Source: an uncultured Candidatus Saccharibacteria bacterium
GTDB taxonomy: Bacteria; Patescibacteriota; Minisyncoccia; Phycocordibacterales; VMEP01
NCBI GenBank assembly: GCA_964579635.1
Contig: CAZOFV010000005.1
Location: forward strand, 1-62,163
Direction of reading: 5' to 3'
Length of the DNA: 62,163 nt
Shown here: positions 17,495 to 56,837 of the stretch, piece after piece
Layout of the letters: each line of letters starts with the position of its first letter
Numbering within the stretch: position 1 is the stretch's first letter
Made by a program: the position numbers and the translations under genes
The notes under the pieces: model-generated
The model's database searches: none
The model's input: the letters and a program-made list of their open reading frames with translations, nothing else
What the model was told of the DNA's origin: nothing

Positions 17495-17535
17495 GTCAAT
17501 TAGAAATTGACTTTTATTATACACATGTGAAGATA
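17495..17535. promoter_or_regulatory. Back-to-back -35 elements (GTCAATT-AGA-AATTGAC) for divergent ctpA-like and ORFan promoters
   Basis: TTGACT at 17507-17512 (+) and TTGACC on (-); -10 matches imperfect. Confidence 0.5.
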
Positions 17536-17599
17536 TGTAGGTCGGTAGAGTTTTACCGATGGTACACAACGACACGTCAACAATCAAAAGGAGAACGCC

Positions 17600-17761
17600 A
17601 TGAAGAAGCTGAAACCCGGCATCATCAGTGCCGGCGCCAAATCGAAGAGCAAGGCCTTTGCGCGCCCCTGTCGTCCCCGACCCAACGCCCGCGCGTTCGC
17701 CGAGAATGAAAAGGACCATCCGCAGGATGCCCTCGCAATCGGCGCCGGTAGCAGCAACTGA
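17600..17761 (+). CDS. 53-aa ORFan absent from the ORF track (MKKLKPGIISAGAKSKSKAFARPCRPRPNARAFAENEKDHPQDALAIGAGSSN)
   Basis: AAAGGAGA 5 nt before ATG; 40 of 53 codons end in G/C; TGA-TAG stops, then a terminator. Confidence 0.65.
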   Translation: MKKLKPGIISAGAKSKSKAFARPCRPRPNARAFAENEKDHPQDALAIGAGSSN

Positions 17762-17786
17762 TAGCGATTCGCCGGAGTACCACCCC

Positions 17787-17821
17787 CCCCACCAATCTGA
17801 CGAAAGGTGGGGTAATTTTTT
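17787..17821 (+). terminator. Intrinsic terminator
   Basis: CCCCACC/GGTGGGG stem followed by a T tract. Confidence 0.65.
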
Positions 17822-17914
17822 CCCAAATTTTAAGCTCTATTTTTTCCTAAAAATCTAAAACTTTTTGTTTAAAAAAATACAGATAAAATAATCTTTTTGT
17901 ATTAAAACACTCCT

Positions 17915-18005
17915 AAAATACCTTCAAAAAACATTGCGCAGTGCGACCGGCACGAGCATAGTAAATTTTTAGCAAAAAATTATACGTGTTTTTTGAAGGT
18001 ATTTT
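17915..18005. repeat. Palindromic MITE/REP-like element, copy A
   Basis: Terminal arms AAAATACCTTCAAAAA/TTTTTGAAGGTATTTT; near reverse complement of 44118-44207. Confidence 0.8.
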
Positions 18006-18093
18006 AAAAAAAGAAAAATATGTGCTTCTAAAGGTAAAAACAAAAAACAATATTATAGTATTGAAAGAAAACTTGTTATATAATATCTCCAAC

Positions 18094-19008
18094 ATGCAAA
18101 ACGTATACAAGCACAATAATGTAACTTGGGTTGATTTAGAATCGCCAACAAAAGAAGAAATAAGAAATGTAATTAATGAATACAGAGTGCACCCATTAAT
18201 TGCAGAGGAATTACTCATCCCAACACTTAGACCAAAAGTTGATTTATACGATGATTGTATATATCTAATCCTCCACTTCCCCTCAGTTATTCACGCGCAC
18301 TCAAAACACACCTCAGCTGAAATAGATTTTGTTATTGGTAAAAACTACATTATTACTGCTCACTATGAGTCCATGGATTCAATTCATCAGTTTTCAAAGA
18401 TTTTTGAAGTAAATTCAATATTAGACAAAAGCAATATGGGTGAACATAGTGGTTATTTATTGTTTTACCTACTTCGAGAACTATATAAAAACTTAATGGA
18501 ACAATTGTTCGATATAGACAAGAATTTAAAAAATATTGAGGATAGAATTTTCCGTGGTGAAGAACATGAAATGGTTCGAACAATTTCTCATATGAATAGA
18601 AAGCTTCTCACCTTTAAACAAGCAATTCAGTATCATCAAGGAGTTCTTGAATCATTTGAAACAGCCGGGCGTCATTTCTTTGGGGATAGTTTTAATTACC
18701 ATTTAAGATCGATGCTCTCGGAATACCACAAGGTCTCAAGCACTCTTGAAGGCCATCGCGACACGGTTAATGAGCTTAGAAACACAAACGACTCTCTTCT
18801 TTCGAGTAAAACAAACGCTGTAATGAAAACTCTAACCGTTATGGCTTTTATTATCCTACCCATGACTTTTATTGGACAACTATTTGGAGTCAGTATCAAA
18901 GAAATACCACTACAAGACTCACCTAATGGATTTTGGATTATTACTTCAATCATGACCTTTGTTGGGATTTCTGGTTTTGCTATTTTTAAATACAAAAAAT
19001 GGCTATAA
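18094..19008 (+). CDS. corA: CorA-family divalent cation transporter
   Basis: TWVDL, HPL, two C-terminal TMs; GMN replaced by GVS; start moved to ATG 18094 because the track start lies inside repeat A. Confidence 0.85.
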   Translation: MQNVYKHNNVTWVDLESPTKEEIRNVINEYRVHPLIAEELLIPTLRPKVDLYDDCIYLILHFPSVIHAHSKHTSAEIDFVIGKNYIITAHYESMDSIHQFSKIFEVNSILDKSNMGEHSGYLLFYLLRELYKNLMEQLFDIDKNLKNIEDRIFRGEEHEMVRTISHMNRKLLTFKQAIQYHQGVLESFETAGRHFFGDSFNYHLRSMLSEYHKVSSTLEGHRDTVNELRNTNDSLLSSKTNAVMKTLTVMAFIILPMTFIGQLFGVSIKEIPLQDSPNGFWIITSIMTFVGISGFAIFKYKKWL

Positions 19009-22942: not shown

Positions 22943-22971
22943 TTGACAAATTTATCTTTGCGTGCTATTTT
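22943..22971 (+). promoter_or_regulatory. Sigma70-type promoter
   Basis: TTGACA, 17-nt spacer, extended TGcTATTTT. Confidence 0.65.
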
Positions 22972-22977
22972 TGGTTG

Positions 22978-23077
22978 GTATCAGCTCCTTCGGAAGCAGA
23001 GAACCGAAGGCCTTCACCTCCCAACGCTGGTACACTTTGCCCCCGCCCTCCTCCCCTTTGGGCGCGGGGCTTTTTTT
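22978..23077 (+). ncRNA. Putative ~100-nt small RNA
   Basis: Bounded by promoter and GC stem + T7 terminator; no start codon; GTATCAGC/GCTGGTAC and CCTTCGG/CCGAAGG stems. Confidence 0.6.
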
Positions 23078-23224: not shown

Positions 23225-24283
23225 CTACTCGTCGTCTTTTTCTGGACCTTCAAGCAAAGAAACTTCGAACCCTGGGCTTGTGCCGGCAATTCTTAAAACA
23301 TCCTTATCAACCTTCTTCAATTCTTTACTTGAAGTGTTGTAGTGATTAACCGCGGTCTGAAGCGTATTACCTAAGCTTCCGTGAGACTTTTCATATGCTT
23401 TTAAGTGTTTGCCTAACTCCTCAACTCTTTTAACAATATCTTTTGCTGTTTCTTCAATCTGCATAGCTTTAAGTCCCTGAAGAACTGTTTGTAGGTATGC
23501 GAGGAATGATGTCGGCGAAACAATAATGACGCGATACTTCCCTGCCGCGCGTTGTATTAAATTCTCTTCATTTTCCTTAACTGCGCCGACTTTGTTCACA
23601 AGCAAATCATAATAAATCGCTTCGTGTGGAATAAACATAAAAGCAAAATCCATCGTGCCTTCGTTTGGGCGAATATATTTTGCTGTTTCTGTAATACGTA
23701 GTTTTAAATCATTTTCAAAAACCTTCGCGAGCCGTTCGCGTTCCGCCGGATTTCTTTCCTCAACAATACGATTATAGTTCTCAAGTGAAAACTTAGAATC
23801 AACAGGGATTATTTTATCTTTCACAAAAACCGCAGCATCAACAATCTCTCCGTCAGAAAAAGCATACTGCATTTGATAGCTCCCTGGTGGCATGACGTTC
23901 TTAAGCAGTGTTTCAAGATAATATTCACCCAAAATTCCACGTTGTTTTGGGTTCTTTAAAATATCCTGTAAAGATTGAAGTTGATCGGTAACAGAAATAA
24001 CCTGCTTGTTTGTCTCATCAAGGCGGGTTAATTTCTCTGTTATATCGCGAATTAAGCTCTGTGATTCGCCAAACTGATGCCGAACGGCAGCCTGCATTTC
24101 TTTATTCGACTCCCCCAGCTTGTCGTCCATTGTTCTTGCAAGGGTCGCAAGTTGATTCTGAATTAAAAGAAGACTGTCTGTTTCAACGGATGGTTTTTGA
24201 GATTGCCCGCGCAAAATAATCCAAACAATAAAAGCTCCGATAACAACCCCAATTACTAAAAATAAAATAGTACCTGACTCCAT
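23225..24283 (-). CDS. rmuC: DNA recombination protein RmuC
   Basis: N-terminal TM, coiled coil, KQRGILGE, PVDSKF, DFAFMFIP, IVSPT. Confidence 0.92.
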   Translation of the reverse strand: MESGTILFLVIGVVIGAFIVWIILRGQSQKPSVETDSLLLIQNQLATLARTMDDKLGESNKEMQAAVRHQFGESQSLIRDITEKLTRLDETNKQVISVTDQLQSLQDILKNPKQRGILGEYYLETLLKNVMPPGSYQMQYAFSDGEIVDAAVFVKDKIIPVDSKFSLENYNRIVEERNPAERERLAKVFENDLKLRITETAKYIRPNEGTMDFAFMFIPHEAIYYDLLVNKVGAVKENEENLIQRAAGKYRVIIVSPTSFLAYLQTVLQGLKAMQIEETAKDIVKRVEELGKHLKAYEKSHGSLGNTLQTAVNHYNTSSKELKKVDKDVLRIAGTSPGFEVSLLEGPEKDDE

Positions 24284-24293
24284 AAAAGATATT

Positions 24294-25079
24294 TTACCAC
24301 AACGACGCTGTCCCCACGCTCTTTTTCTTTGGCATCACTTCTGTCACAGCTTCACGATATAAGCAGTAGTCACAGCCCTCACTTTCCTTTGGTGGCTCAT
24401 CCAGTAGTAAGCATTTTTTAGCGCCAATAAGCGCTTCTTCTATCCAATCATCTGAACCTTTATATGGAATAACCTTCACGTCAAATTCAAGCTTGGCGTC
24501 AAAAGCTTCTTTGTCTGAAATACCGTTGCAATAAACGAAATATCCAGTGTTTGAGACGATATGGTCGTTCTGACGAAGAAGCCATTGATACACCTCCATT
24601 TGGCGCTTATATCCATCTTGCCACTCCGCATCTAAAGACACTTCCCCTTCTTTACTTGTCGCCTTGTAATCAACAACCATAATTTCACCAGATGGCGCTT
24701 CCCAGATATCGTCCACCGCGCCAGTCACAATAAAGTTTGTTTTCTTATGTAAAAAACGCACACCGACAAAGTTGTTTCGCCAATCTTCAAGATTGTCGTG
24801 CTTAAACGGCACAGCGTCAATTTTATACTTCGCCATCAAAGGATGGGCCGAGGCTTTCGCGCGATAAATATCAAATTCTTTTTTAAGAAGTTTGTCGACA
24901 GCTGAGTTTAGAGAAAAAGGAAACCCCGGTGGCCTGCCTACACCTAGCCTTCGGTCCAAATAAAAACATCTTGGGCATTCCAAGAATAAATCTATCTTTG
25001 AACGGGAAAGTGCAAACGGTTCTGTGCTCTCTGGGCTAAATTTATTTTTTGTTCGGCGGGGATTGTAATACTGTGACAT
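24294..25079 (-). CDS. PD-(D/E)XK nuclease, Cas4-like standalone
   Basis: LSRSK...CPRC, GAVDD, VVDYKAT, QMEVY, CDYC. Confidence 0.85.
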   Translation of the reverse strand: MSQYYNPRRTKNKFSPESTEPFALSRSKIDLFLECPRCFYLDRRLGVGRPPGFPFSLNSAVDKLLKKEFDIYRAKASAHPLMAKYKIDAVPFKHDNLEDWRNNFVGVRFLHKKTNFIVTGAVDDIWEAPSGEIMVVDYKATSKEGEVSLDAEWQDGYKRQMEVYQWLLRQNDHIVSNTGYFVYCNGISDKEAFDAKLEFDVKVIPYKGSDDWIEEALIGAKKCLLLDEPPKESEGCDYCLYREAVTEVMPKKKSVGTASLW

Positions 25080-25716: not shown

Positions 25717-25744
25717 TTGACAAATCCTTGTTTTCTGTTATGAT
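25717..25744 (+). promoter_or_regulatory. Sigma70-type promoter of ORFan 25774
   Basis: TTGACA, 16 nt, TGtTATGAT. Confidence 0.65.
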
Positions 25745-25773
25745 ATAAAAAGGTCCATTAAAGGAGATTTGTC

Positions 25774-26010
25774 ATGACGACAGATGCTTTTCATCGGAAA
25801 GTTTCAGGAGAGGTCTTCGAAAAAATGACGTCAGCGAGGCTGACTTCGTTTAACGAAAGTGATTTTTACAAAGCCCTCTACCCTATTCTGAAGAAGGAAA
25901 ATGCTTTCGACGGAAGAACGTATCACGGGCGGAAAATCAGACCGCTCGTCGAGAAGATGTTCGTCGAGTTTCAACAGGAACAAGAACCAAGTAATTTCGT
26001 TCTGACCTGA
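25774..26010 (+). CDS. 78-aa ORFan
   Basis: AAAGGAGA 6 nt before ATG; own promoter and terminator. Confidence 0.75.
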   Translation: MTTDAFHRKVSGEVFEKMTSARLTSFNESDFYKALYPILKKENAFDGRTYHGRKIRPLVEKMFVEFQQEQEPSNFVLT

Positions 26011-26029
26011 AGCACGTGAATCACCATCA

Positions 26030-26060
26030 GGGCGCCCCAGTACGGGGCGCTTATTTTTTT
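26030..26060 (+). terminator. Intrinsic terminator
   Basis: GGGCGCCCC-AGTAC-GGGGCGCTT, then T7. Confidence 0.8.
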
Positions 26061-26079: not shown

Positions 26080-26107
26080 AAAAACAAGGCCACCCGATAA
26101 GGGTGGC
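26080..26107 (-). terminator. Intrinsic terminator
   Basis: GCCACCC-TTATC-GGGTGGC, then T-rich tract on (-). Confidence 0.75.
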
Positions 26108-26135
26108 GAATGGAACGGCGCTGTTCATGTAGGTT

Positions 26136-26288
26136 TTACCAACTCTCGAAGGAGTCGGTTTCAACCGCAGCGGATACTTGCTGCGAATCGAAATCAGATT
26201 GAGCCAGCGTATCTTCCCCGAGAAGGTCGGCGATAAATTCCTCGACTGACAGGGTAAAGCGGTTCCAGAGATTGCTCAAAAACTTCAT
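26136..26288 (-). CDS. 50-aa acidic ORFan absent from the ORF track (MKFLSNLWNRFTLSVEEFIADLLGEDTLAQSDFDSQQVSAAVETDSFESW)
   Basis: GGAGG before ATG, GC-rich codons, downstream terminator. Confidence 0.7.
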   Translation of the reverse strand: MKFLSNLWNRFTLSVEEFIADLLGEDTLAQSDFDSQQVSAAVETDSFESW

Positions 26289-26709
26289 GGCTATTTCCTC
26301 CGTTTTTGTTGTACAGGGTTGCTTTATTTACAGTACCACATGAATTGAGGAATGGGAAGGGGGAGAAATACAATTATAATTAAATCTAGGTTGTTTGACT
26401 TTTAAATAACTCCGACGGATAATATTATTTATCCCCGCTAATTGCGAGGTTTATAAAAATAAGTTGTAAGCAATTATGGCAAACTTTTTGTATTCCCCGT
26501 GTTCTTTGGAGGAGAAGTTGGTGTAATTAAGTACAAACGATTCTTGGTGTTTACCAATCATCTTTGAGCTGTGCTAACGGGGTGTAAATGCTTGGCTAGG
26601 GCTAAGTAGTTCAGAAGTTATAGAATGATGTTATCAGACATTTTTGCCTAACGAGTTTCTAGTTTGAGAAATTTAGAAGGCAATGCAACTTTCTAAAGTA
26701 AAGCTAGCT

Positions 26710-26749
26710 GAACGGGCGTGGGAAGGCTGATACCTAACTACGCCCGTTC
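26710..26749. other. GC hairpin with structured 20-nt loop
   Basis: GAACGGGCGT/ACGCCCGTTC, inner AGG-CTGATA-CCT. Confidence 0.6.
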
Positions 26750-26818
26750 CTAATTATTTTAATTCTATAAACAACTAAGCCAACGTCTTAGAAACTAGTG
26801 AAAACAAATGCCACTGCT

Positions 26819-27097
26819 TTAGATATTTTTCTTCATCCAATCGCCAACATTAGTGGGAATATTATATGTTGCCCAATTAGTGTTAGTCGTATCAAGGACA
26901 ACCAGTTTATCATTAGTATCAAGAAAAACTTTCATATCGGCTCTTACTTCACTAACTGATTTATCTGTTTTAATAAACCAAACTGATTTTAATGGTTTTG
27001 CCCAATATGTATAAGATTTTATATGTTCAATTAAACGAGTATAGTCCTCACGTGTTTCTGGCCCTAATAAATCGTAGGAAATTATATATGTTTTCAT
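26819..27097 (-). CDS. Cas2/VapD-like ferredoxin-fold small protein (SinR-family-like)
   Basis: YIISYDL N-terminal motif; WAKPLKSVW; LDTNDKLVV. Confidence 0.65.
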   Translation of the reverse strand: MKTYIISYDLLGPETREDYTRLIEHIKSYTYWAKPLKSVWFIKTDKSVSEVRADMKVFLDTNDKLVVLDTTNTNWATYNIPTNVGDWMKKNI

Positions 27098-27099
27098 AA

Positions 27100-27381
27100 C
27101 TAATCTTCTTTATTTGATGCTTTGAAATAATAACCAATTATGAAACCAAGTGGTCCAGACAAAATACCAGAAACAGCCAAAAGCATATCTTTATAATCAC
27201 TTATTACAAAATTTTTATAAGTAGCTATGCCGAGAACAAAAGCAATTATAGATAGATAACCTATAACGTAGAAGAGGGCTATGTAACTTCGAGTCCCTTC
27301 TCTTTTTTCAGCTCGCCTAATTCCAGAAAGCCCAACCTCGTCGGGAAAAGCATCGATTTGCTGCGTAAAATTTTTTTTCAT
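27100..27381 (-). CDS. Small two-TM membrane protein
   Basis: Two hydrophobic helices ending GFIIGYYF; 2-nt gaps to both neighbours. Confidence 0.7.
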   Translation of the reverse strand: MKKNFTQQIDAFPDEVGLSGIRRAEKREGTRSYIALFYVIGYLSIIAFVLGIATYKNFVISDYKDMLLAVSGILSGPLGFIIGYYFKASNKED

Positions 27382-27383
27382 AA

Positions 27384-27626
27384 TTAAAGTTCTTTAACAT
27401 CAATAAAGACCTTTTTACCTTCTTTGTCTTCAATACAAAGTTTTCCATCACCATAATCTCTTGCGACTTCTATAACTTTCATCCCCTTAATTAAAACTTC
27501 GCCAAGTTTATCTTCTGGTACAGACAAATACACACCTAATTCTCTTAGTTTTTTTAAAGCCCCATTGCCAAAACTAACATCGAATCTATCTGGCTGTAAA
27601 TTATTGTTTGTTAAAGATTCTTCCAT
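27384..27626 (-). CDS. Putative ribbon-helix-helix (CopG-like) DNA-binding protein
   Basis: Alternating beta strand RFDVSF, then two helices and a short beta tail. Confidence 0.5.
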   Translation of the reverse strand: MEESLTNNNLQPDRFDVSFGNGALKKLRELGVYLSVPEDKLGEVLIKGMKVIEVARDYGDGKLCIEDKEGKKVFIDVKEL

Positions 27627-27837
27627 ATCAGTATTTCTATTAGTATTTCTTGTTATAACAAATTTATAAATTGAAGCTTAAGTTTAACAGTATTATAGTT
27701 CAAATCCAAGAATTTCTAATTTTTAAGATTTTCTGGATTATATTAATATTTTAATTTCATCACTAAGGCGCCAGCTTATATATGACACATTATATAATGA
27801 TTTCCTGTTACTCCAAAGAGAATCAAAATACGCTTCG

Positions 27838-27890
27838 GTCACGAGTTACTAAGCATTTTGGCACCATTGGCGCCAAAATACAAAGTACTC
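27838..27890. repeat. 53-bp palindromic direct repeat, copy 1
   Basis: 51/53 identical to 28497-28549. Confidence 0.9.
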
Positions 27891-27952
27891 ATGAATATAC
27901 AAACTAAGTTGTATATTCCCGCATTCATAGAAATATGAGGAATTTCCTGATA

Positions 27953-28447: not shown

Positions 28448-28496
28448 TATAATTATTTAGTGATTATCGTGATAGTTATTTAAAGGTGATTCATCT

Positions 28497-28549
28497 GTCA
28501 CGAGTTACTAAGTATTTTGGCACCATTGGTGCCAAAATACAAAGTACTC
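28497..28549. repeat. 53-bp palindromic direct repeat, copy 2
   Basis: GTATTTTGGCACC-ATT-GGTGCCAAAATAC core. Confidence 0.9.
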
Positions 28550-28800: not shown

Positions 28801-28916
28801 TTGTTTATTTTTATCTAAATACTAATTCCACCCATTGTTTACTCGCCATGCGAGTAAGCCAAACTAAACACACATAGCTTATATTTTTTCCCCCTTTCTA
28901 TCAAGTTTAAAATAAT

Positions 28917-28938
28917 AAAGCCCGCGAATGCGGGCTTT
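28917..28938 (-). terminator. Intrinsic terminator AAAGCCCGCGAATGCGGGCTTT
   Basis: Identical to 29226-29247. Confidence 0.8.
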
Positions 28939-28949
28939 ATGGCTCGGTA

Positions 28950-29144
28950 TCAACCGAGGGAACAGATCTTCTCTACAACGGCCCAAAGATCTTTGATCAT
29001 TCCCCAAGCATCTCCGTAAAACAAATAGGACATCAACAGAACCTGGGTTACGACAAGAAAAACCAACAAGGCTTTGAGACGTTTGCCGGTTCTCCTGCTT
29101 TCAGCCCACATGGCTTCTGTTTCAGGACATGTCTGTGTTTTCAT
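28950..29144 (-). CDS. 64-aa single-TM ORFan (paralog of 29264-29467)
   Basis: Own promoter TTGACT-17-TAAAGT (29203-29175) and terminator. Confidence 0.75.
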   Translation of the reverse strand: MKTQTCPETEAMWAESRRTGKRLKALLVFLVVTQVLLMSYLFYGDAWGMIKDLWAVVEKICSLG

Positions 29145-29225
29145 TTTTTCCCCAATAAAATGTTTACTCCTGTAACTTTACAACATTAAGTTATGTTAGT
29201 CAATATTTTCTTAGTTAAAAATAAC

Positions 29226-29247
29226 AAAGCCCGCGAATGCGGGCTTT
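29226..29247 (-). terminator. Intrinsic terminator AAAGCCCGCGAATGCGGGCTTT
   Basis: Identical to 28917-28938. Confidence 0.8.
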
Positions 29248-29263
29248 CGTTTTGACTAAGTGG

Positions 29264-29467
29264 TCAACGGAGGAAAATTATTTCCCAGATGTCGTTGTAA
29301 GTTGAGACGATCTTTACGACGATTTCGAATACACCTCCGTAAACCAAAAAAACCCCGAACAAAATCTGCGTAGCCACAATGGAACATAACGAAATCTTGA
29401 AATACTTCTCCTCTTCCTTGATTTTCGTTCTCAGGGTTTCCGTGTTTGAATATACACCCTCTTCCAT
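29264..29467 (-). CDS. 67-aa single-TM ORFan (paralog of 28950-29144)
   Basis: Own promoter TTGACG-17-TAGAGT (29565-29537); shared VxTQxLxxxxLxYG. Confidence 0.75.
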   Translation of the reverse strand: MEEGVYSNTETLRTKIKEEEKYFKISLCSIVATQILFGVFLVYGGVFEIVVKIVSTYNDIWEIIFLR

Positions 29468-29568
29468 AATTTTCTCCCCAAAATACCTACGTCACTTGGG
29501 CTAATTTCGAACAACTAAAACTTGTTTGCTTACACAACTCTACAACACTAAATATTACACGTCAACTT

Positions 29569-36141: not shown

Positions 36142-36185
36142 ATTATACAGTTTTTATAAAAAAAGTGAAAATCATAACCTTTTTT

Positions 36186-41955: not shown

Positions 41956-41984
41956 TTGACAAAACCGAATAAATGGTGTACTCT
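41956..41984 (+). promoter_or_regulatory. Sigma70-type promoter of ORFan 42042
   Basis: TTGACA-17-TACTCT. Confidence 0.7.
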
Positions 41985-42041
41985 AAGCAAAGAATTTGTA
42001 GTATTAAATTTTCAACATAAACCCAGTAAAGGAGAACCGAA

Positions 42042-42299
42042 ATGAAAAAATTTGGTATTATCGCGTTTTTGCTGATGATGGCGGTTACCGCTTTTGCAGC
42101 AAACACCGGCATCGACCTCCCCGGCGTCTCGGAAAACGAGCGTCTAACCAAAGCAGTAATTTTCGCCGGCATTGCCGCCTTCTGGGTGGGGGCGCTATGG
42201 GCGCACGTTCTGACCTCCCACGCAACGGAAGAGAAGTACAGTCGCGCGTTCATCCGCGATAACGACGAGTTGCCACGAGATTCAACCGAAGCCACGTGA
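42042..42299 (+). CDS. 85-aa ORFan with signal peptide and one TM
   Basis: AAAGGAGA RBS; MKK-hydrophobic-AFA signal; GC-rich codons. Confidence 0.8.
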   Translation: MKKFGIIAFLLMMAVTAFAANTGIDLPGVSENERLTKAVIFAGIAAFWVGALWAHVLTSHATEEKYSRAFIRDNDELPRDSTEAT

Positions 42300-42332
42300 A
42301 ATTTTCACGTGACCAAACGGCGACCCAAAACC

Positions 42333-42360
42333 AAAGCCGACCACTCTCGTGGCCGGCTTT
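42333..42360. terminator. Intrinsic terminator
   Basis: AAAGCCG-A-CCAC/GTGG-C-CGGCTTT. Confidence 0.7.
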
Positions 42361-42383
42361 CTTCATTTACCTATTTATTCATT

Positions 42384-44939: not shown

Positions 44940-44962
44940 ATTTATATAAATAGCTTTTTATC

Positions 44963-45036
44963 TTTTAAAAACGCGCATATTCGCCTGCTGGCGAATTGCT
45001 ATGCTCGTGCCGCCGCACTGCGCAATGTTTTTAAAA
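44963..45036. repeat. Palindromic element copy D
   Basis: CTATGCTCGTGCCGCCGCACT core as in copy B; ATTCGC-CTGCTG-GCGAAT inner hairpin. Confidence 0.75.
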
Positions 45037-50028: not shown

Positions 50029-50884
50029 TACTCCTTTTGTTTTTTTTGGAACACCGCAGTTTGCGGTATTTGTTTTAGAAGAACTTCTTCGTTCAGGAAT
50101 AAAGCCGGCACTTATAGTCACCGCGCCAGATAAGCCACAAGGTCGCGGTCTTCTTTTAACTCCCCCTCCGATAAAAGTTTGGGCAAAAGAAAACGGAATC
50201 CCTTTCATTCAACCGGTAAAACTTGATAATGCTTTTATTGCAGAATTAAAATCTAATTCTTGTGAACTGTTCGTCGTTGCCGCCTATGGAAAAATAATTC
50301 CTAAAGAAATTTTAAAGATTCCATCACATGGAACACTTAATGTTCATCCTTCTCTTTTACCAAAATACAGAGGAGCCTCCCCTATCCAGTCACAAATAAT
50401 GAACGATGAAAAAGAAATTGGCGTCACAATTATGCTTGTTGACGAAGAGATGGATCACGGCCCAATCATCGCACAACAAAAATTAAATATCGAAAAAATG
50501 CCGAGCGCTCCAAAACTCTTAGAGATGCTTGCGCGCAGTGGAGGAAAATTACTTTCTGAGGTTATTCCAAACTGGATTACAAAAGAAATCGAGCCAAAAG
50601 ATCAAAAACACGATGAAGCAACTTTTACTAAAAAAATTACAAAAGAAGATGGGTTAGTTAGTTTACAAAACGACGATACATACAAAAACTATTTAAAATA
50701 TTTGGCCCTAGACCCATGGCCGGGAACTTATTTTTTTGCGTTAAGGCATGGAAAAAGAATAAGAGTTGCAATCAAAAAAGCGGAATTTATTGATAATAGA
50801 TTTGAAATAAAAGAGGTTTTACCTGAAGGTGGTAAAACAATGCCTTATGGCGATTTCCTACGTGGCGGTGCTGTGCTAGAATAA
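50012..50884 (+). CDS. fmt: Methionyl-tRNA formyltransferase
   Basis: FFGTPQFA, NVHPSLLPKYRGASP, MDHGP. Confidence 0.95.
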   Translation: MKTTNNTPFVFFGTPQFAVFVLEELLRSGIKPALIVTAPDKPQGRGLLLTPPPIKVWAKENGIPFIQPVKLDNAFIAELKSNSCELFVVAAYGKIIPKEILKIPSHGTLNVHPSLLPKYRGASPIQSQIMNDEKEIGVTIMLVDEEMDHGPIIAQQKLNIEKMPSAPKLLEMLARSGGKLLSEVIPNWITKEIEPKDQKHDEATFTKKITKEDGLVSLQNDDTYKNYLKYLALDPWPGTYFFALRHGKRIRVAIKKAEFIDNRFEIKEVLPEGGKTMPYGDFLRGGAVLE

Positions 50885-50924
50885 AAAAAGCAGTTCCCTT
50901 CAACAAAATAGCAGGAGAGAAAAA

Positions 50925-51491
50925 ATGAAAGCAACCAGGGCAAACGCCCAAGTAGCACAGGAATCAACCGAGAAACTCCGTCCAGTTTCCCCGCTCGTGC
51001 AACGGGAGCTTCCCCCGACGATAGAAGTAAACGTCAGGGTACCCAAAGAAGGCTTGATTAACGAACGGATCCTCATCGTTGGGACGTATATCACCCCGCG
51101 AATTGATGACCAGGGCGGACAACACGGCGGAGACGACATTCTCGTCATGGTAAACAGCGCACGTGGCAGGATTGACGAGGAAATCGAAATTTCCGGGAAA
51201 GTTCGGATTCACACGGTGAACGGGCGTAACGGAACAATGCCCGATGAATTCATCGGGGTCCAGATTATCGGCTTCCTGAGCACTATCGGGAAAGGCTTTG
51301 CGACGAACAACGAGCAACTTCCGATTCCCGAAAATATCCCGATTCTCGAGCTCATCGAAACCATCCACGAAATGGAGAATATCGTTGTCGACGAAAGGCA
51401 ACAACGACTGCTCTCTGCCCTTGCGCAAAGCGACATCGGCAAGGCCCGGCTCGACATTCGGAAGTATTTCCGTCCGTTGCCCCCGGCCTGA
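50925..51491 (+). CDS. 188-aa ORFan
   Basis: AGGAGA RBS, GC-rich codons, terminator follows. Confidence 0.8.
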   Translation: MKATRANAQVAQESTEKLRPVSPLVQRELPPTIEVNVRVPKEGLINERILIVGTYITPRIDDQGGQHGGDDILVMVNSARGRIDEEIEISGKVRIHTVNGRNGTMPDEFIGVQIIGFLSTIGKGFATNNEQLPIPENIPILELIETIHEMENIVVDERQQRLLSALAQSDIGKARLDIRKYFRPLPPA

Positions 51492-51516
51492 AAATTTCTC
51501 AACCCTGCTTAATGCA

Positions 51517-51541
51517 AAAGCCCGCACTCGTTGCGGGCTTT
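51517..51541. terminator. Intrinsic terminator AAAGCCCGC/GCGGGCTTT
   Basis: Same 9-bp arms as 28917 and 29226. Confidence 0.8.
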
Positions 51542-53378: not shown

Positions 53379-53483
53379 GAAATATAGTATATATCATGAT
53401 AAGTAACAGGTGAACTTTTCATTTTCTGTTTTTTTTGTTAGCATACTAGCCACATTCCGGAGTAGTTGAAATGCGAATAAATA

Positions 53484-53557
53484 AAGCATTTCAAAGGCGG
53501 AGGCTGACGAGCCGAGCCGGGGTCGCAGAATTTTTCAGCAGAAAAATATCTGTGACC
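53484..53557 (+). repeat. 74-bp repeat, identical to 53976-54049
   Basis: Exact duplicate; GGTCGCAGA-ATTTTT-CAGCAG-AAAAAT-A-TCTGTGACC hairpin. Confidence 0.9.
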
Positions 53558-53591
53558 TGCGGTCCCGCTGAGATACTCCTGATATGTATAT

Positions 53592-53666
53592 TCCGGAGTA
53601 GCTCAGCGGTAGAGCGGTCGCCTGTTAAGCGATTGGTCACAGGTTCGAATCCTGTCTCCGGAGCCA
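53592..53666 (+). tRNA. tRNA-Asn(GTT), CCA encoded
   Basis: TCCGGAG/CTCCGGA acceptor, GTCGC-CTGTTAA-GCGAT, GGTTCGAATCC. Confidence 0.96.
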
Positions 53667-53714
53667 GAAATAGTTAGCCCTGCTGCGAAAGCAATGGGGC
53701 TTTACTATTTCCTT

Positions 53715-54097
53715 CGGAGACAGGATTCGAAAGATTTTGCGGGCACCTGTTTAGCAAAACAGGTCGCAAAATCAGGGTCGAGAAATTTTTCTGCTCGACG
53801 GAGCGGAAAAATGTTCTTGACCGAACCTGTCTCCGGAGCTTGTAAAAACTTTAGACCCCCCTTATAGGGGGCTTTAGTTTTTTAAGCTCCGGAGAGCAAG
53901 CAACTAGATTTGCTTGCGTACAGGATTCGAAAGCCGGAGCGCGACGGCGCGAGGCGGGCTTAATTGCGATAAGTGAAGCATTTCAAAGGCGGAGGCTGAC
54001 GAGCCGAGCCGGGGTCGCAGAATTTTTCAGCAGAAAAATATCTGTGACCGCGCAAAATCTCAGTAGAGATTTATGCGTGACCAATCCTGTCTTCGGA
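53715..54097. repeat. Array of inverted and direct tRNA-Asn 3'-end copies with nested hairpins
   Basis: Inverted 53715-53731, direct 53826-53839, split inverted 53886-53931, direct 54083-54097. Confidence 0.85.
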
Positions 54098-54186
54098 ACT
54101 TCGAAAGTACTATCTTTACCCCCTTTTTTTCATAATAGATTTTATGAAAACTTTAAATATCACAATATATTTGAGATAATAAAACT

Positions 54187-55347: not shown

Positions 55348-55451
55348 AGGTTTTGAGTATATTATCCACCCTCGGTCCTGTATAAATAATGTGTCTAAAC
55401 CTGTCTCCGAATAATTTTAAAAACAAAAAGAAAGAGTACAATTCACAACAT

Positions 55452-55793
55452 ATGGATATCTCAAGAAAAAAATTTATTATTCTCTTCGTCGTTTTTGGGT
55501 TTGCCTTTCTTTTTATTACTACTTCGCTTTTGGGGTCTACTGGCCTTCGAGGTTTCCCTAAACACCCAGATTCTTTCCTGAAGACGGCGTCACCAATAAT
55601 CTGGAAAAATAACGTTTCAAAAATTATATTACCTATAAAAGTATTTCTAATAGGTCCCTTATTGCTTTCTAATGATTTTTTGCGTGATGATCCGCCACCA
55701 CCATTTATTGGTATCTATCTCATTCTCTATTGGACGATTCTTGCCTCCGTTATTCATTATTTACTCAACAAAATAAAAAGTTTAATTAATTGA
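55452..55793 (+). CDS. Membrane hypothetical protein
   Basis: Hydrophobic segments; ATG 55452 preferred over the track start. Confidence 0.65.
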   Translation: MDISRKKFIILFVVFGFAFLFITTSLLGSTGLRGFPKHPDSFLKTASPIIWKNNVSKIILPIKVFLIGPLLLSNDFLRDDPPPPFIGIYLILYWTILASVIHYLLNKIKSLIN

Positions 55794-55805
55794 AAGCTGT
55801 TTAAT

Positions 55806-55961
55806 ATGAATAAATGGAAAATACTATACTCCTTTCTCGCAGTAGAATTTGGAATATTTATGTTTGTATATGGAGGATATGATGATAGCCCTGGCGCACA
55901 AGGACTCGGACTCTTAATGGTAATTAGCGGTGTTGTAAGCGCGATAAAAAATAAAGTTTAA
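55806..55961 (+). CDS. 51-aa two-TM protein absent from the ORF track (MNKWKILYSFLAVEFGIFMFVYGGYDDSPGAQGLGLLMVISGVVSAIKNKV)
   Basis: Hand translation; TM-GGYDDSPG-TM; ends before a terminator. Confidence 0.65.
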   Translation: MNKWKILYSFLAVEFGIFMFVYGGYDDSPGAQGLGLLMVISGVVSAIKNKV

Positions 55962-55979
55962 TTATTACTAGACAAAAAA

Positions 55980-56005
55980 ATAAACGCCGATTGCTAGGCG
56001 TTTAT
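55980..56005. terminator. Bidirectional terminator
   Basis: ATAAACGCC/GGCGTTTAT between convergent genes. Confidence 0.75.
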
Positions 56006-56039
56006 TAATTTAGCTAATTAATATACCTGCCATGAATGT

Positions 56040-56711
56040 TCAGAAAACAGGCGTCTTAACTTCATCAGAGTACATGTAGTTGAAGTTTCTGAGTGCCCTC
56101 GCGGTCATACTCCTTTCTTGAGAGCCAAGAAAATTCAAGACTTCATCGGCATGAAATTTTTCTCGGAGAATTTCTTGCCGTTCCACAAACCTCGGACAAA
56201 CAGACCTCAGTACGATAACGGCGCTGCCAAACGATTTCGACATCAGCTGAAAGGCCCGGCTAAACCAATCGTCCTTCCCATCCGAAGACTTGGCGAGCCC
56301 TTTATACAAACTGGTGCCAAGGTTGGCCACGTATTCAAGAGATCGTGGCTCGTGCCGATTAAGACTCCTCTCCGGGAAAAAAGCTACGTACTGCAAGCTC
56401 ATGTCAGCGACATCTTGAACACAAACTTGGTCAATTTTTGATATACCGAAAACATACTGGTAAAAATCAAAAGCTGACAACTGCTCGAAAAGTTCCGCCC
56501 GACCCATAAAACGGTTGAGCATTGTGGCGAGATAGTCCCTGACCATCTCGTCAACGGGTACCCTTGATTTTGTGCACGCTTCACTCAAAAGCAGATACCA
56601 CTGATGCTCTGGAGACTCTGCGCGCACAAACCCCATTTCGTTTAACGTCTGAAAACTAGCTTCTTTTTTTACATCTTCTGGCTTAGCGAGAACAACCATA
56701 TTATTATCCAT
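56040..56711 (-). CDS. 223-aa helical hypothetical protein in its own expression unit
   Basis: AAAGGAGA RBS, TTTACA-16-TACGAT promoter (56774-56747), GC-richer codons. Confidence 0.8.
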   Translation of the reverse strand: MDNNMVVLAKPEDVKKEASFQTLNEMGFVRAESPEHQWYLLLSEACTKSRVPVDEMVRDYLATMLNRFMGRAELFEQLSAFDFYQYVFGISKIDQVCVQDVADMSLQYVAFFPERSLNRHEPRSLEYVANLGTSLYKGLAKSSDGKDDWFSRAFQLMSKSFGSAVIVLRSVCPRFVERQEILREKFHADEVLNFLGSQERSMTARALRNFNYMYSDEVKTPVF

Positions 56712-56837
56712 GACACATTCTCCTTTTTTAATAGAGCTCCGTTTTCATCGTACACCTCAAGGGCCCGATGTAAAGACTCAAACGAAAACACAGCTATTTT
56801 AATTTTTATTATATTAAAACAATAAAGTAGTTATTTT

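What the first reader, a model, noticed from the sequence alone, without database searches (positions are those of the whole stretch)
17495..56780. Dispersed set of self-contained ORFan cassettes with their own expression grammar (SD-positive, GC3-rich)
Seen: eight solitary genes (17600, 25774, 26288-, 29144-, 29467-, 42042, 50925, 56711-) wedged between housekeeping genes. Most have a near-consensus -35/-10 and all end in a GC-stem terminator. The 8-mer AAAGGAGA sits 5-7 nt before ATG in four of them (17587, 25760, 42028, 56726-); the others have AGGAGA, GGAGG or TTGGGGA. AAAGCCCGC/GCGGGCTTT terminator arms recur three times. Codons are GC-rich (40 of 53 end in G/C at 17600 versus 11 of the first 30 in rpmA). 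The housekeeping starts I checked (mraY, murG, gltX, rpmA, dnaB) have no SD. Inference, three options: moron-like genes imported from a higher-GC phage or host pool; a class of very highly expressed genes; or, most speculative, genes tuned to another translation apparatus such as the host's. I do not know a named system with this pattern.
Basis: partly seen in the sequence, partly recalled or inferred. Interest (0 to 1): 0.8.

Follow-up and report, generated by a model that had tools for sequence, protein, structure and literature searches.

The report
SD-led accessory gene cassettes, leaderless core

Summary
All eight genes have a GGAG-type Shine-Dalgarno (SD) 5-9 nt before ATG, GC3 of 0.49-0.74 against 0.30 +/- 0.05 for the other 64 genes, an upstream -35/extended -10 promoter and a hairpin terminator.

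The window is a whole contig of a Paceibacteria (Parcubacteria, CPR) MAG. Its core genes lack an SD because they look leaderless or tightly coupled. Across about 1.1 Mb of related loci a -10 box ends exactly 7 nt before ATG in 103 of 931 ORFs, against about 15 at other positions.

The cassettes are the leadered minority. Clade-wide, SD-led genes are short and lineage-specific. 53% have TTGACN upstream and 36% have a terminator.

In close relatives the same intergenic slots are filled, empty, duplicated or hold very divergent alleles. For five cassettes the ORF is less conserved than its own promoter and 5' UTR. One gene (C8) is not an ORFan but a conserved CPR family.

I found no phage or defence homology and no support for the host-ribosome idea. 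The excess GC3 is seen only in AT-rich genomes of the clade, and its cause is unresolved. The 16S anti-SD could not be read.

Verdict: a GeneMarkS-2 "group C"-type genome with moron-like accessory cassettes. This is a new variant of a known kind, of moderate interest.

The parts
17507..17821 (+). Cassette C1. Promoter TTGACT-N17-(TGTG)AAGATA at 17507-17536, 5' UTR of about 58 nt with a small hairpin, SD AAAGGAGA at 17587-17594, ORF 17600-17761 (53 aa, basic, GC3 0.74), terminator at 17787-17821.
   Evidence: A 52-aa orthologue (GC3 0.81) with conserved promoter, UTR and terminator is present in L103; the site is empty in L104.
25717..26060 (+). Cassette C2. Promoter TTGACA-N16-TATGAT at 25717-25746, SD at 25760-25767, ORF 25774-26010 (78 aa, soluble), terminator at 26030-26060.
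   Evidence: Window versus L001: promoter plus UTR 81% identical, CDS 53%. Synonymous difference 0.56 against 0.13-0.26 in flanking core genes; L001 versus L002 0.09 against 0.18-0.28. A contig joint at 25776->26045 in run X8.
26080..26358 (-). Cassette C3, convergent with C2. Extended -10 TGTGGTACTGT, SD CGGAGGAA at 26295-26302, ORF 26136-26288 (50 aa, acidic), terminator at 26080-26107.
   Evidence: UTR plus promoter 89% identical to L001, CDS 75% identical, 64% at the amino-acid level.
28909..29203 (-). Cassette C4. Promoter TTGACT-N17-TAAAGT at 29175-29203, weak SD TTGGGGAAAAA, ORF 28950-29144 (64 aa, one TM segment), terminator AAAGCCCGC..GCGGGCTTT.
   Evidence: Paralogue of C5 (E 2e-5). 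L001 and an X8 contig carry only one copy of the pair.
29217..29565 (-). Cassette C5. Promoter TTGACG-N17-TAGAGT at 29537-29565, SD TGGGGAGA at 29473-29480, ORF 29264-29467 (67 aa, one TM segment), terminator identical to C4's.
   Evidence: Orthologues in L001 (63 aa, 39% identity) and L002 (66 aa, 43% identity) next to MurF, which is 94-96% identical.
41956..42368 (+). Cassette C6. Promoter TTGACA-N17-TACTCT at 41956-41984, divergent from the leaderless proS promoter. SD at 42028-42035, ORF 42042-42299 (85 aa, signal/TM plus a second TM segment, GC3 0.64), terminator at 42333-42368.
   Evidence: Only one homologue cluster among 5.8 billion proteins. The same slot holds a 157-aa relative in L020 and an unrelated 113-aa TM protein in L022, both SD-led behind the same TTGACA promoter.
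50854..51541 (+). Cassette C7. Extended -10 TGCTAGAAT inside the end of fmt (50854-50882), SD CAGGAGAG at 50912-50919, ORF 50925-51491 (188 aa, GC3 0.62), hairpin AAAGCCCGCA..TGCGGGCTTT at 51517-51541.
   Evidence: Orthologues sit in the same Fmt|PPIase slot in L099 (70% identity) and L102 (47% identity) with GC3 0.55-0.60. The slot is empty in L022 and L023, and the L020 and L021 contigs break there. Three homologue clusters in 1.84 billion representatives, plus a weak hit to a CarboxypepD_reg repeat protein.
55974..56774 (-). Cassette C8. Promoter TTTACA-N16-TACGAT at 56747-56774, SD AAAGGAGA at 56719-56726, ORF 56040-56711 (223 aa, all-alpha, GC3 0.50), terminator at 55974-56003.
   Evidence: Conserved family of unknown function: 47 clusters at 42-92% identity. 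dN/dS 0.06. AF2 pLDDT 77, with no PDB sequence or fold match. The SD is kept in distant homologues L015 and L017.
22943..23077 (+). Possibly associated (low confidence): a candidate small RNA with the same leadered promoter type (TTGACA-N17-TG-TATTTT), an exposed CACCUCCC motif, and a terminator hairpin whose loop is UCCUCCCCUUU, i.e. complementary to the cassette SDs.
   Evidence: Positional counterparts with CU-rich terminator loops in L001, L002, L103 and L104. MFE z-score -3.2. Best Rfam hit is sub-threshold sX13 (E 0.12). No usable covariation.

Best explanation
The window comes from a Paceibacteria (Parcubacteria, CPR) genome that uses two modes of gene expression.

Core genes. Genes that head a transcription unit have a TG-extended -10 box ending 6-7 nt before the ATG, so transcription should start at the start codon (leaderless mRNA). 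Genes inside operons follow the previous stop codon by -17 to about +30 nt (translational coupling). Neither needs an SD.

Cassettes. The eight cassettes belong to the minority class of leadered, monocistronic genes. Each has a -35 box plus an extended -10, a 5' UTR of about 23-63 nt (predicted from the -10 position) carrying an AAGGAG-type SD 5-9 nt from the ATG, a short ORF, and an intrinsic terminator. The organism's own 30S subunits presumably read them by ordinary SD:anti-SD pairing; this step is inferred.

Role. This class is the flexible gene pool of the lineage. The units occupy intergenic slots between conserved core genes. Between close relatives a slot can be filled, empty, duplicated or hold a strongly diverged allele. 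For five of the cassettes (C1, C2, C3, C5, C7) the ORF diverges more than its own promoter and 5' UTR, and for at least one gene the alleles appear to have been exchanged by recombination.

Products. They are mostly small membrane, secreted or charged proteins without known relatives. The likeliest roles are at the cell envelope, in interaction with a host, or against phage; this is inferred and weak.

GC3. The GC3-rich composition marks this pool in the AT-rich members of the clade, and its cause is open.

Shown: the signals, their positional statistics, the synteny, the presence/absence differences and the divergence patterns. Inferred: the transcription start sites, use of the organism's own anti-SD, and the protein functions.
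For: Identity of the organism: MurF and Ctp relatives are named Parcubacteria or Paceibacterota.

Leaderless core: TAnn[AT]T ends at -7 in 103 of 931 ORFs of at least 100 aa, against about 15 per other position. In the window this fits Ctp, ProS, MurA, RmuC, Def, hyp123, hyp236 and others. The pattern matches GeneMarkS-2 group C (PMC6028130).

SD class across the clade:
- A strong SD in -17..-4 in 101 of 1178 ORFs, against 17-25 in control windows; spacer mode 7 nt; consensus AAAGGAG[A/G].
- SD genes are shorter: median 150 aa, against 337 aa for the -10-box (leaderless-type) class.
- They are far less conserved: 50% have no homologue in other loci, against 19% (MWU p 4e-12).
- 53% have TTGACN upstream, against 10-14%; 36% have a perfect-stem terminator, against 7-11%.

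Window: SD energy and GC3 separate the eight genes from the other 64.

The ORFs are real: orthologous ORFs are preserved with in-frame indels and dN/dS of 0.06-0.37.

Slot dynamics:
- L001 and L103 carry extra cassettes between hyp261 and RmuC, where the window has 10 nt, and between RmuC and L21.
- L021 has one between PriA and Def.
- The C1 slot is empty in L104, and the C7 slot is empty in L022 and L023.
- C4 and C5 are two copies against one in L001.

Expression frame better conserved than the ORF. An X8 contig departs from the window exactly between the ATG (25776) and the terminator (26045).

Allele exchange: C2 synonymous difference of 0.56 where the flanking genes show about 0.2, yet 0.09 between L001 and L002 where the flanking genes show 0.18-0.28.
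Against: - No transcription start or expression data exist for this organism, so leaderless and leadered status rests on motif positions alone.
- The 16S rRNA could not be read: none was found in 1.19 Mb of held sequence. Tsurumaki et al. 2022 (PMC9297842) report that the CCTCCT anti-SD was detected in only 48% of Parcubacteria 16S genes, and was missing mainly in the uL1-lacking group. If this lineage truly lacks it, ordinary SD pairing cannot be the mechanism.
- The clade-wide gene calls are my own crude ORF calls (first ATG of the longest ORF).
- The conservation measure is confounded by how the loci were chosen (around MurA, MurF, Ctp and C8).
- Not every accessory gene is SD-led. The strain-specific island at 26.4-28.5 kb is AT-rich and has no SD.
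- C8 is conserved, not flexible.
- The GC3 excess is unexplained and is absent in GC-richer relatives.
Confidence: 0.7

Rival explanations
1. Recent horizontal imports (true morons) from a GC-richer donor, phage or host. On this reading the SD, the sigma-70 promoter and the GC3 are the donor's grammar and have not yet drifted to the recipient's composition.
For: - Each unit is an autonomous promoter-gene-terminator block inserted between core genes, and its composition is atypical.
- Filled and empty sites occur in close relatives.
- C2's allele genealogy is discordant with its flanks.
- A serine-recombinase island at the tRNA-Asn site in L099 shows that mobile DNA does enter this region.
Against: - No homologue was found outside the clade: nothing in PHROGs, PADLOC or IMG/VR, and only 1-3 clusters for C6 and C7 in billions of proteins.
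- No integrase, target-site duplication or other junction signature was seen at three filled/empty pairs.
- C7 has the same synonymous divergence as its neighbours (0.33 against 0.26-0.39) and keeps GC3 at 0.55-0.62 in three lineages. Polarised changes are balanced (S->W 9, W->S 7), where about 3.5:1 would be expected if it were drifting toward the core composition (small numbers).
- The SD, -35 and terminator syndrome is clade-wide and includes the vertically inherited C8 family.
Confidence: 0.25
2. A class of very highly expressed genes. Strong -35 promoters, a strong SD and G/C-ending codons are all selected for output.
For: - The -35 boxes are near consensus and the SDs are strong.
- In ribosomal-protein and HPF genes, two-fold codon boxes shift in the same direction as in the cassettes. 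NNY C fraction: 0.40 against 0.30 in core genes. NNR G fraction: 0.43 against 0.25.
Against: - The cassettes also shift strongly in four-fold boxes (C 0.30-0.36, G 0.24-0.30, against 0.13 and 0.16), which ribosomal-protein genes do not. That looks like a compositional effect, not a tRNA-driven one.
- Genes that are strain-variable, lineage-specific and fast-evolving (dN/dS 0.16-0.37 against 0.00-0.09 for core genes) are not what highly expressed genes usually look like.
- The GC3 excess is absent in GC-richer relatives.
- No RNA data exist.
Confidence: 0.15
3. Genes written for another translation apparatus, such as a host cell's ribosomes, because the lineage's own 16S lacks an anti-SD.
For: The published low detection rate of the anti-SD motif in Parcubacteria 16S genes (PMC9297842). 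The core genes carry no SD at all.
Against: - The motif, its A-rich context and its 5-9 nt spacing are ordinary bacterial SD features, and they are conserved across diverged relatives while the ORFs change.
- The promoters are of the same TG-extended -10 type as the core genes' promoters, so the genes are presumably transcribed in the same cell.
- No mRNA export mechanism is known in bacteria (general knowledge).
- A later paper notes that 16S 3' termini in CPR MAGs are often not fully annotated (PMC12641178). That can explain the apparently missing anti-SD.
Confidence: 0.03
4. Some or all cassettes are not protein genes. They would be GC-rich structured RNAs or spurious ORFs in GC-rich intergenic DNA.
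For: GC-rich islands in AT-rich genomes are often RNA genes. C1 and C4 were not called by the pipelines behind the protein collection. A real candidate sRNA with the same promoter type lies at 22943-23077.
Against: - No Rfam match, even at E<=1.
- The ORFs are preserved in relatives with in-frame indels and conserved N- and C-termini (C1; C2, C3, C5).
- dN/dS is below 1 for all testable pairs.
- The SD-ATG geometry is conserved.
- C7 and C8 have protein-level homologues.
Confidence: 0.04
5. The small single-TM cassettes (C4/C5, perhaps C6 and the L001 extras) are type I toxin-like or other membrane-active peptides. Their strain variability would reflect addiction-module or conflict dynamics, possibly kept in check by the CU-rich sRNA.
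For: - Size of 64-85 aa with one or two hydrophobic segments, tandem duplication, and copy number that varies between relatives.
- Strong SDs.
- A nearby conserved sRNA whose loops are complementary to G-rich SDs.
Against: No antisense promoter or RNA was identified at the loci. There is no PADLOC or Pfam hit. The predicted sRNA-mRNA duplexes are no better than trivial SD complementarity. The proteins are longer than most type I toxins.
Confidence: 0.1

Closest known systems
GeneMarkS-2 'group C' genomes: bacteria with frequent leaderless transcription, such as Mycobacterium, Streptomyces and Deinococcus (Lomsadze et al. 2018, PMC6028130)
   Same: The Pribnow box lies 6-8 nt from the start codon of first genes in operons. 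The remaining, leadered genes use an SD ribosome-binding site at about the same distance.
   Different: - Group C was described as frequent in Actinobacteria and Deinococcus-Thermus; the text passages I searched do not mention CPR.
- Here the SD class is small (about 9% of ORFs) and almost confined to short, lineage-specific, monocistronic genes with their own -35 box and terminator.
- In AT-rich members the SD class has a distinct GC3.
Phage morons (autonomous promoter-gene-terminator units inserted between conserved phage genes, often of deviant composition; from my own knowledge of the Hendrix-group lambdoid phage work)
   Same: The unit has the same anatomy. It is inserted precisely between two conserved neighbours without disturbing them, relatives show filled and empty sites, and the base composition is atypical.
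   Different: The neighbours are chromosomal housekeeping genes, not phage genes. There is no PHROG or IMG/VR similarity. Several units are inherited vertically over long spans (C7, C8).
Bacteroidota-type SD-poor translation, in which only a few genes such as rpsU keep an SD (from my own knowledge)
   Same: The genome-wide lack of SDs coexists with a few genes that keep a strong SD.
   Different: Here the SD-less starts show a -10 box at -7, which indicates leaderless mRNAs. Bacteroidota instead have A-rich leaders with a sequestered anti-SD. In this genome the SD genes are accessory genes, not ribosomal-protein genes. Sequestration of the anti-SD was not testable.
Flexible or replacement genomic islands and hypervariable islets of streamlined environmental bacteria (from my own knowledge)
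   Same: Fixed chromosomal slots between conserved genes hold different or divergent genes in closely related strains. Metagenome recruitment drops over these slots.
   Different: The scale is a single gene. The conserved part is the expression frame itself (promoter, UTR, SD, terminator), and the change falls on the ORF between ATG and stop.
C-rich regulatory sRNAs that pair with G-rich SD regions, such as sX13 of Xanthomonas and RsaE/RoxS of Firmicutes. This comparison applies only to the side finding at 22943-23077.
   Same: A short RNA ending in a terminator, with exposed C/U-rich loops. The best Rfam alignment, though below threshold, is to sX13.
   Different: The score is 18.5 bits against a gathering threshold of 50, so membership is not shown. 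No target validation exists, and the alignment was too poor to test covariation.

Membership tests
Leaderless-rich bacterial genome (GeneMarkS-2 group C) | A -10 (Pribnow) box at a fixed distance of about 6-8 nt upstream of the start codon of first genes in operons | tested here: met
   TAnn[AT]T ends at -7 in 103 of 931 ORFs, against about 15 at other positions.
Leaderless-rich bacterial genome (GeneMarkS-2 group C) | The remaining, leadered genes carry an SD-type RBS | tested here: met
   GGAG peaks at -8 with a spacer mode of 7 nt. 101 of 1178 ORFs have a strong SD, against 17-25 in control windows.
Leaderless-rich bacterial genome (GeneMarkS-2 group C) | Transcription start sites mapped at the start codon | not testable with these tools
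   No RNA run holds this sequence.
SD-dependent translation initiation | A purine-rich GGAGG-like motif 5-10 nt upstream of the start codon, conserved among orthologues | tested here: met
SD-dependent translation initiation | A complementary CCUCC tail at the 3' end of the organism's 16S rRNA | not testable with these tools
The literature reports frequent non-detection of the motif in Parcubacteria.
SD-dependent translation initiation | Avoidance of SD-like motifs inside coding regions | tested here: inconclusive
   GGAGG has O/E 0.81 (z -7.7), but its reverse complement CCTCC is equally depleted (0.73, z -7.7). The signal is therefore not strand-specific.
Phage moron | A gene flanked by its own promoter and terminator | tested here: met
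Phage moron | Residence in a phage or prophage genome between conserved phage genes | tested here: not met
   The neighbours are Ctp, CorA, YqeY, MurF, ProS, RseP, Fmt, PPIase and TruB. There are no PHROG hits and no IMG/VR relatives.
Type I toxin-antitoxin (C4, C5, C6 only) | A small hydrophobic peptide | tested here: met
   The translations show single or double TM-like segments.
Type I toxin-antitoxin (C4, C5, C6 only) | A cis- or trans-encoded antisense RNA that represses the toxin mRNA | tested here: inconclusive
   No antisense promoter is evident. The CU-rich sRNA candidate pairs only through generic SD complementarity.
Diversity-generating retroelement target | A reverse transcriptase plus a template repeat matching a variable region | tested here: not met
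   No RT domain was found in any Pfam- or NCBIfam-scanned protein of the window. No repeat pairs with a cassette ORF. Divergence spans whole ORFs rather than a C-terminal variable region.
sX13-type C-rich sRNA (side finding) | Reaches the Rfam gathering score | tested here: not met
   18.5 bits against 50, E 0.12 on a 181-nt search.

The most novel reading that the evidence does not exclude
Paceibacteria run a two-tier expression system. A leaderless core proteome cannot be touched by SD-directed control. A separately controllable, SD-dependent set of strain-variable small envelope or effector proteins sits in conserved 'expression sockets' (promoter, UTR, SD, terminator), and the ORFs in these sockets are swapped or diversified by recombination. 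The SD-led class would be switched as a block, either by a CU-rich anti-SD-like sRNA (window 22943-23077) or by ribosome heterogeneity in a lineage whose 16S anti-SD is reported to be often undetectable.
Probability: 0.12. Interest if true: 0.8.

Novelty: new variant of a known kind. Interest (0 to 1): 0.5.

Why it matters
CPR (Patescibacteria) bacteria are a large, mostly uncultured share of bacterial diversity, and how they start translation is largely uncharted. One study reported that many Parcubacteria seem to lack the anti-SD and left the consequence open.

This locus and about 1.1 Mb of relatives suggest a simple picture:
- Core genes are leaderless or coupled, so an SD is dispensable for them.
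- SD-led initiation survives, with ordinary geometry, in the flexible gene pool.

This has three consequences.
- Gene calling in CPR MAGs is affected. Start sites are at risk, and small SD-led genes such as C1 and C4 are missed.
- It gives a cheap sequence signature (SD plus a -35 box plus a terminator) for picking out the strain-variable small proteins. These are the best candidates for host or phage interaction in these episymbionts.
- It makes a clear, testable prediction about the 16S 3' end.

ORFs that are less conserved than their own control regions point to diversifying or exchange processes at single-gene scale. These can be followed in population metagenomes.

Tried and rejected
- Rfam, at gathering thresholds and at E<=1 over the whole window: only two tRNAs, and no RNA family under any cassette.
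- Pfam, PHROGs and PADLOC on the cassette proteins and on the extra cassettes of relatives: nothing significant.
- IMG/VR scans with C7 and with the C8 alignment: nothing.
- AF2 models of C8 (pLDDT 77) and C7 (pLDDT 63), searched with Foldseek against the PDB: no match with E<=0.001. A PDB profile search with C8 also found nothing.
- Finding the 16S: no rRNA motif in any of 104 loci, even allowing 3 mismatches. The contig ends are not rRNA.
- RNA-seq: no run available.
- SD-motif avoidance inside genes as a proxy for a working anti-SD: not strand-specific, so uninformative.
- sRNA-target duplex prediction: only generic SD complementarity. The -27.7 kcal/mol value for C5 is an artefact of three separate helices with large loops.
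- Covariation for the sRNA: the alignment was too poor.
- Target-site duplications or other insertion signatures at filled/empty junctions: none seen.
- DGR and integron ideas: no RT, no integrase in the window, and no template repeat.
- GC-biased gene conversion as the cause of high GC3: unlikely, because the UTRs between the same recombination boundaries stay A/T-rich.
- The supplementary tables of PMC9297842 are not held.

Full report
WHAT THE WINDOW IS

The 62,163 bases are a complete NCBI contig with 37.7% GC. The proteins are a normal bacterial housekeeping set:
- MraY, FtsW, MurG, GltX, L27, L9, Ctp, CorA, CysS, DnaB and RecR;
- L21, RmuC, MurF, FtsI, LysS, GreA, PBP2, MreC and two MreB paralogues;
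- ProS, RseP, RRF, MurA, PriA, Def, Fmt, PPIase, HPF and TruB.

The closest relatives are MAGs named Parcubacteria or Candidatus Paceibacterota, from groundwater, rock and soil. The best one, LiPW_30 (locus L001), has 96% MurF identity.

THE OBSERVATION

All eight ORFs are present, and I call them C1 to C8 in window order. Each has a GGAG-type motif 5-9 nt upstream of ATG. Each has a promoter-like -35/TG-extended -10 pair placed so that the 5' UTR would be about 23-63 nt. Each is followed by a GC-rich hairpin.

Pairing energy with a canonical anti-SD is -5.5 to -9.5 kcal/mol for the eight. It is above -4.3 for 61 of the other 64 genes. GC3 is 0.49-0.74, against 0.298 +/- 0.054 with a maximum of 0.46 for the rest. 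These statistics are descriptive only, because the set was picked on these traits. The independent test is the clade-wide analysis below.

WHY THE CORE GENES HAVE NO SD

Core genes that head a transcription unit carry a -10 box, often TG-extended, that ends 6-7 nt before the ATG. Examples are TGAGATAAT-CCACAA-ATG for Ctp, TGTAAGAT-AGCACT-ATG for ProS, GTAAGAT-GGTGCC-ATG for MurA and TGATATAAT-TTAACG-ATG for hyp123.

I collected about 1.1 Mb of related Paceibacteria loci around MurF, MurA, Ctp and C8 homologues. Among 931 ORFs of at least 100 aa, a TAnn[AT]T hexamer ends at position -7 in 103 cases, against about 15 at other positions. This is the signature of leaderless transcription that GeneMarkS-2 calls group C, with the Pribnow box 6-8 nt from the start (PMC6028130).

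Genes inside operons start from 17 nt before to about 30 nt after the preceding stop, which fits translational coupling. So the "missing SD" has an ordinary explanation. I found no paper in the held library that describes leaderless dominance in CPR.

THE SD CLASS IS REAL AND CLADE-WIDE

In the same data GGAG peaks at -8, and the spacer to ATG has a mode of 7 nt. The consensus is AAAGGAG[A/G]. A strong SD lies in -17..-4 of 101 of 1178 ORFs, against 17-25 in control windows further upstream.

I defined the class by the SD alone. The other traits then follow:
- The genes are shorter: median 150 aa, against 337 aa for the -10-box (leaderless-type) class.
- They are far less conserved. 50% have no homologue in any other locus, against 19% for leaderless-type genes (MWU p 4e-12).
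- 53% have TTGACN upstream, against 10-14%. 33% have a full -35/-10 pair, against 4%. 36% are followed within 90 nt by a perfect-stem terminator, against 7-11%.
- Those of 120-250 aa are somewhat enriched for hydrophobic segments (42% against 25%, p 0.02).

THE CASSETTES ARE THE FLEXIBLE PART OF A CONSERVED BACKBONE

Flanking core proteins are 88-100% identical between the window and L001 or L002. The cassette proteins in the same slots are only 39-64% identical. Slots differ in occupancy:
- L001 and L103 carry a cassette unit between hyp261 and RmuC, where the window and L104 have 10 nt. In L001 it holds two genes, of 112 and 104 aa. L103 has the 112-aa gene called there.
- L001 and L103 also carry a 164-179 aa cassette between RmuC and L21.
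- L021 has a 162-aa cassette between PriA and Def, where the window has 55 nt.
- The C1 slot is filled in the window and L103 and empty in L104.
- The C7 slot is filled in the window, L099 and L102 and empty in L022 and L023. The L020 and L021 contigs break exactly there.
- C4 and C5 are a tandem pair in the window, but a single gene in L001 and in an X8 contig.
- The C6 slot holds an 85-aa, a 157-aa or an unrelated 113-aa membrane protein, each SD-led behind the same TTGACA promoter.

Insertions begin right after the upstream stop codon. They bring their own promoter and terminator, and downstream of the insert there is a leaderless -10 box for the next gene (L001). I saw no target-site duplication and no recombinase. 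Recruitment of contigs from related populations falls to near zero over C2-C5 while the flanks stay covered.

THE ORFS DIVERGE MORE THAN THEIR OWN CONTROL REGIONS

Window against L001:

| Segment | Identity |
|---|---|
| C2 promoter + UTR | 81% |
| C2 CDS | 53% |
| C2/C3 terminators | 82% |
| C3 CDS | 75% |
| C3 UTR + promoter | 89% |

The same ordering holds for C1, C5 and C7, but not for C8. An X8 contig follows the window up to the ATG (25776) and resumes at the terminator (26045).

At codons with identical amino acids, synonymous differences give a mixed picture. C2 differs at 0.56 between the window and L001, where flanking genes differ at 0.13-0.26. Between L001 and L002 it differs at only 0.09, where flanking genes differ at 0.18-0.28. 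This discordance indicates that alleles are exchanged between lineages.

C3 (0.28) and C7 (0.33 against 0.26-0.39 in neighbours) have normal synonymous divergence but lowered protein identity of 64-70%. That is faster protein evolution under relaxed or diversifying selection. dN/dS is 0.16-0.37 for the orthologous cassette pairs other than C8, against 0.00-0.09 for core genes and 0.06 for C8. The ORFs are therefore coding, but weakly constrained.

WHAT THE PROTEINS ARE

- C8 is a conserved, all-helical 223-aa family of unknown function. It has 47 clusters, all from CPR-like sources, and sits next to truB in close relatives but elsewhere in distant ones. It keeps its own SD and terminator there too. 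It has no sequence or fold relative in the PDB.
- C7 has three homologue clusters among 1.84 billion representatives. It also has a weak match (E 7e-9) to the repeated CarboxypepD_reg-like beta-sandwich of a 1268-aa surface-type protein. Its model is of low confidence.
- C6 has one homologue cluster.
- C4, C5, C6 and several extra cassettes in relatives have one to three hydrophobic segments.
- C1 is a 53-aa basic peptide, C3 is a 50-aa acidic one, and C2 is a small soluble protein.
- None of them shows phage or defence similarity.

THE GC3 QUESTION

The cassettes' codon usage is a general shift to C- and G-ending codons that includes the four-fold boxes. Ribosomal-protein genes shift only in the two-fold boxes.

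Clade-wide, SD genes exceed their genome's GC3 by +0.15 where the genome mean GC3 is below 0.42 (p about 1e-6). They do not exceed it in GC-richer genomes.

C7 has kept GC3 at 0.55-0.62 in three lineages, with balanced S->W and W->S changes (9 against 7, small numbers). This argues against simple unfinished drift toward the core composition after a recent import.

I cannot decide between three causes: repeated exchange within a pool of moderate GC, selection on these mRNAs, or something else.

THE ANTI-SD CAVEAT

Tsurumaki et al. 2022 detected the CCTCCT anti-SD in only 48% of Parcubacteria 16S genes. It was missing mainly in the uL1-lacking group, and a later paper describes Paceibacteria as lacking rplA (uL1). 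That later paper also notes that 16S 3' ends in CPR MAGs are often incompletely annotated.

I could not obtain a 16S for this lineage. The conserved motif, spacing and context of the SDs predict that a CCUCC tail exists. If it does not, the finding becomes much more interesting.

A proxy test, SD-motif avoidance inside genes, was uninformative because CCTCC is as depleted as GGAGG.

SIDE FINDING THAT MAY CONNECT

Between L21 and RmuC lies a unit of about 110 nt with the cassette-type promoter and a strong terminator but no ORF (22943-23077). It is 93% identical in L001, and L002, L103 and L104 have counterparts at the same position.

It exposes CACCUCCC, and its terminator loop is UCCUCCCCUUU. 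All five versions keep a CU-rich loop. It folds better than shuffled sequences (z -3.2). Its best Rfam alignment, although below threshold, is to the C-rich sRNA sX13.

An sRNA complementary to SDs would act only on the leadered class in this genome. That idea is speculation: the duplex predictions add nothing beyond SD complementarity.

VERDICT

The cause is a leaderless or coupled core plus a leadered, SD-dependent, moron-like accessory class. The host-ribosome reading is not supported. The import and high-expression readings remain partial or untested.

The kind of system is known (group C genomes, moron-like units, flexible islets). Three aspects appear not to have been described in the literature I could search:
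- its occurrence in Paceibacteria;
- the near-complete partition of the two initiation modes between core and accessory genes;
- ORFs that diverge more than their own control regions.

Noticed in passing
window 22943-23077 (+): Candidate small RNA between rplU (L21) and rmuC. It has a TTGACA-N17-TG-TATTTT promoter, is about 110 nt long, and carries the exposed motifs CACCUCCC and terminator-loop UCCUCCCCUUU, which are complementary to SD sequences. Positional counterparts with CU-rich terminator loops occur in L001, L002, L103 and L104. There is no Rfam family; the best sub-threshold hit is sX13.
   Followed up: partly
window 53380-54186: The tRNA-Asn locus looks like a worn integration site. 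An 81-nt direct repeat (53477-53557 / 53969-54049, 98% identical) brackets the tRNA. Several direct and inverted copies of the tRNA 3' end (CCTGTCTCCGGAGC, ACAGGATTCGAA) follow it. In relative L099 the same position, after the HIT gene, holds a serine-recombinase island with an HTH_17 gene.
   Followed up: partly
window 17885-18015, 36181-36262, 44112-44198, 44959-45035; also L020 6804-6932 and the L103/L104 Ctp|CorA spacers: A family of intergenic repeats with the core GCGCAGTGCGACGGCACGAGCATAGTAAATTTTCAGCAGAAAATTATACG, which contains a palindrome and a TATAAT-like box. They lie just upstream of leaderless genes. They may be MITE/REP-like or a shared promoter/operator module.
   Followed up: no
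window 26364-28493: A strain-specific, AT-rich island with four ORFs of 80-164 aa that have no SD and no Pfam hit. It is bounded by a 56-nt direct repeat (27835-27890 / 28494-28549, 95% identical). It is absent from related populations X5 and X8, and other genes take its place in L001 and L002. This shows that not all accessory DNA here is SD-led or GC-rich.
   Followed up: partly
L001 columns 112-360 of alignment A2 (upstream of the C2 promoter); window 53477-53557: A GC-rich repeat motif (GGCGGAGGCTGACGAGCCGAGCCGGGGTCGC) is shared between the tRNA-Asn direct repeats and a roughly 270-nt insertion in L001. It looks like a mobile miniature element.
   Followed up: no
window 30901-32619 (ftsI): FtsI has about twice the synonymous divergence of its neighbours between the window and L001 (0.37-0.50 against about 0.23) and lower protein identity (89%). 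This suggests a recombination mosaic in a core cell-wall gene.
   Followed up: no
window 24283-24294 versus L001 17602-18508: The leaderless -10 box of rmuC (TGTGGTAAAAT) overlaps the stop codon of the upstream gene. In L001, where a cassette is inserted there, a different -10 box (TACAAT) sits in front of rmuC.
   Followed up: partly
window 8857-9047: A GC-rich (up to 0.53) 190-nt spacer with palindromic stretches lies between the M10-like peptidase and the DUF2914 gene. In L103 the two genes abut, and in L104 a Gmad2 gene sits between them.
   Followed up: no
window 39607-40662 and 45071-46084: Two MreB paralogues lie 5.4 kb apart (repeats D1 and D3, 71-74% nucleotide identity). This is unusual for so small a genome.
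   Followed up: no
clade-wide coding regions (734 ORFs): Both GGAGG and its reverse complement CCTCC are depleted relative to synonymous-codon shuffles (O/E 0.81 and 0.73, both z -7.7). This hints at a strand-symmetric constraint, for example restriction-site avoidance, rather than anti-SD avoidance.
   Followed up: partly
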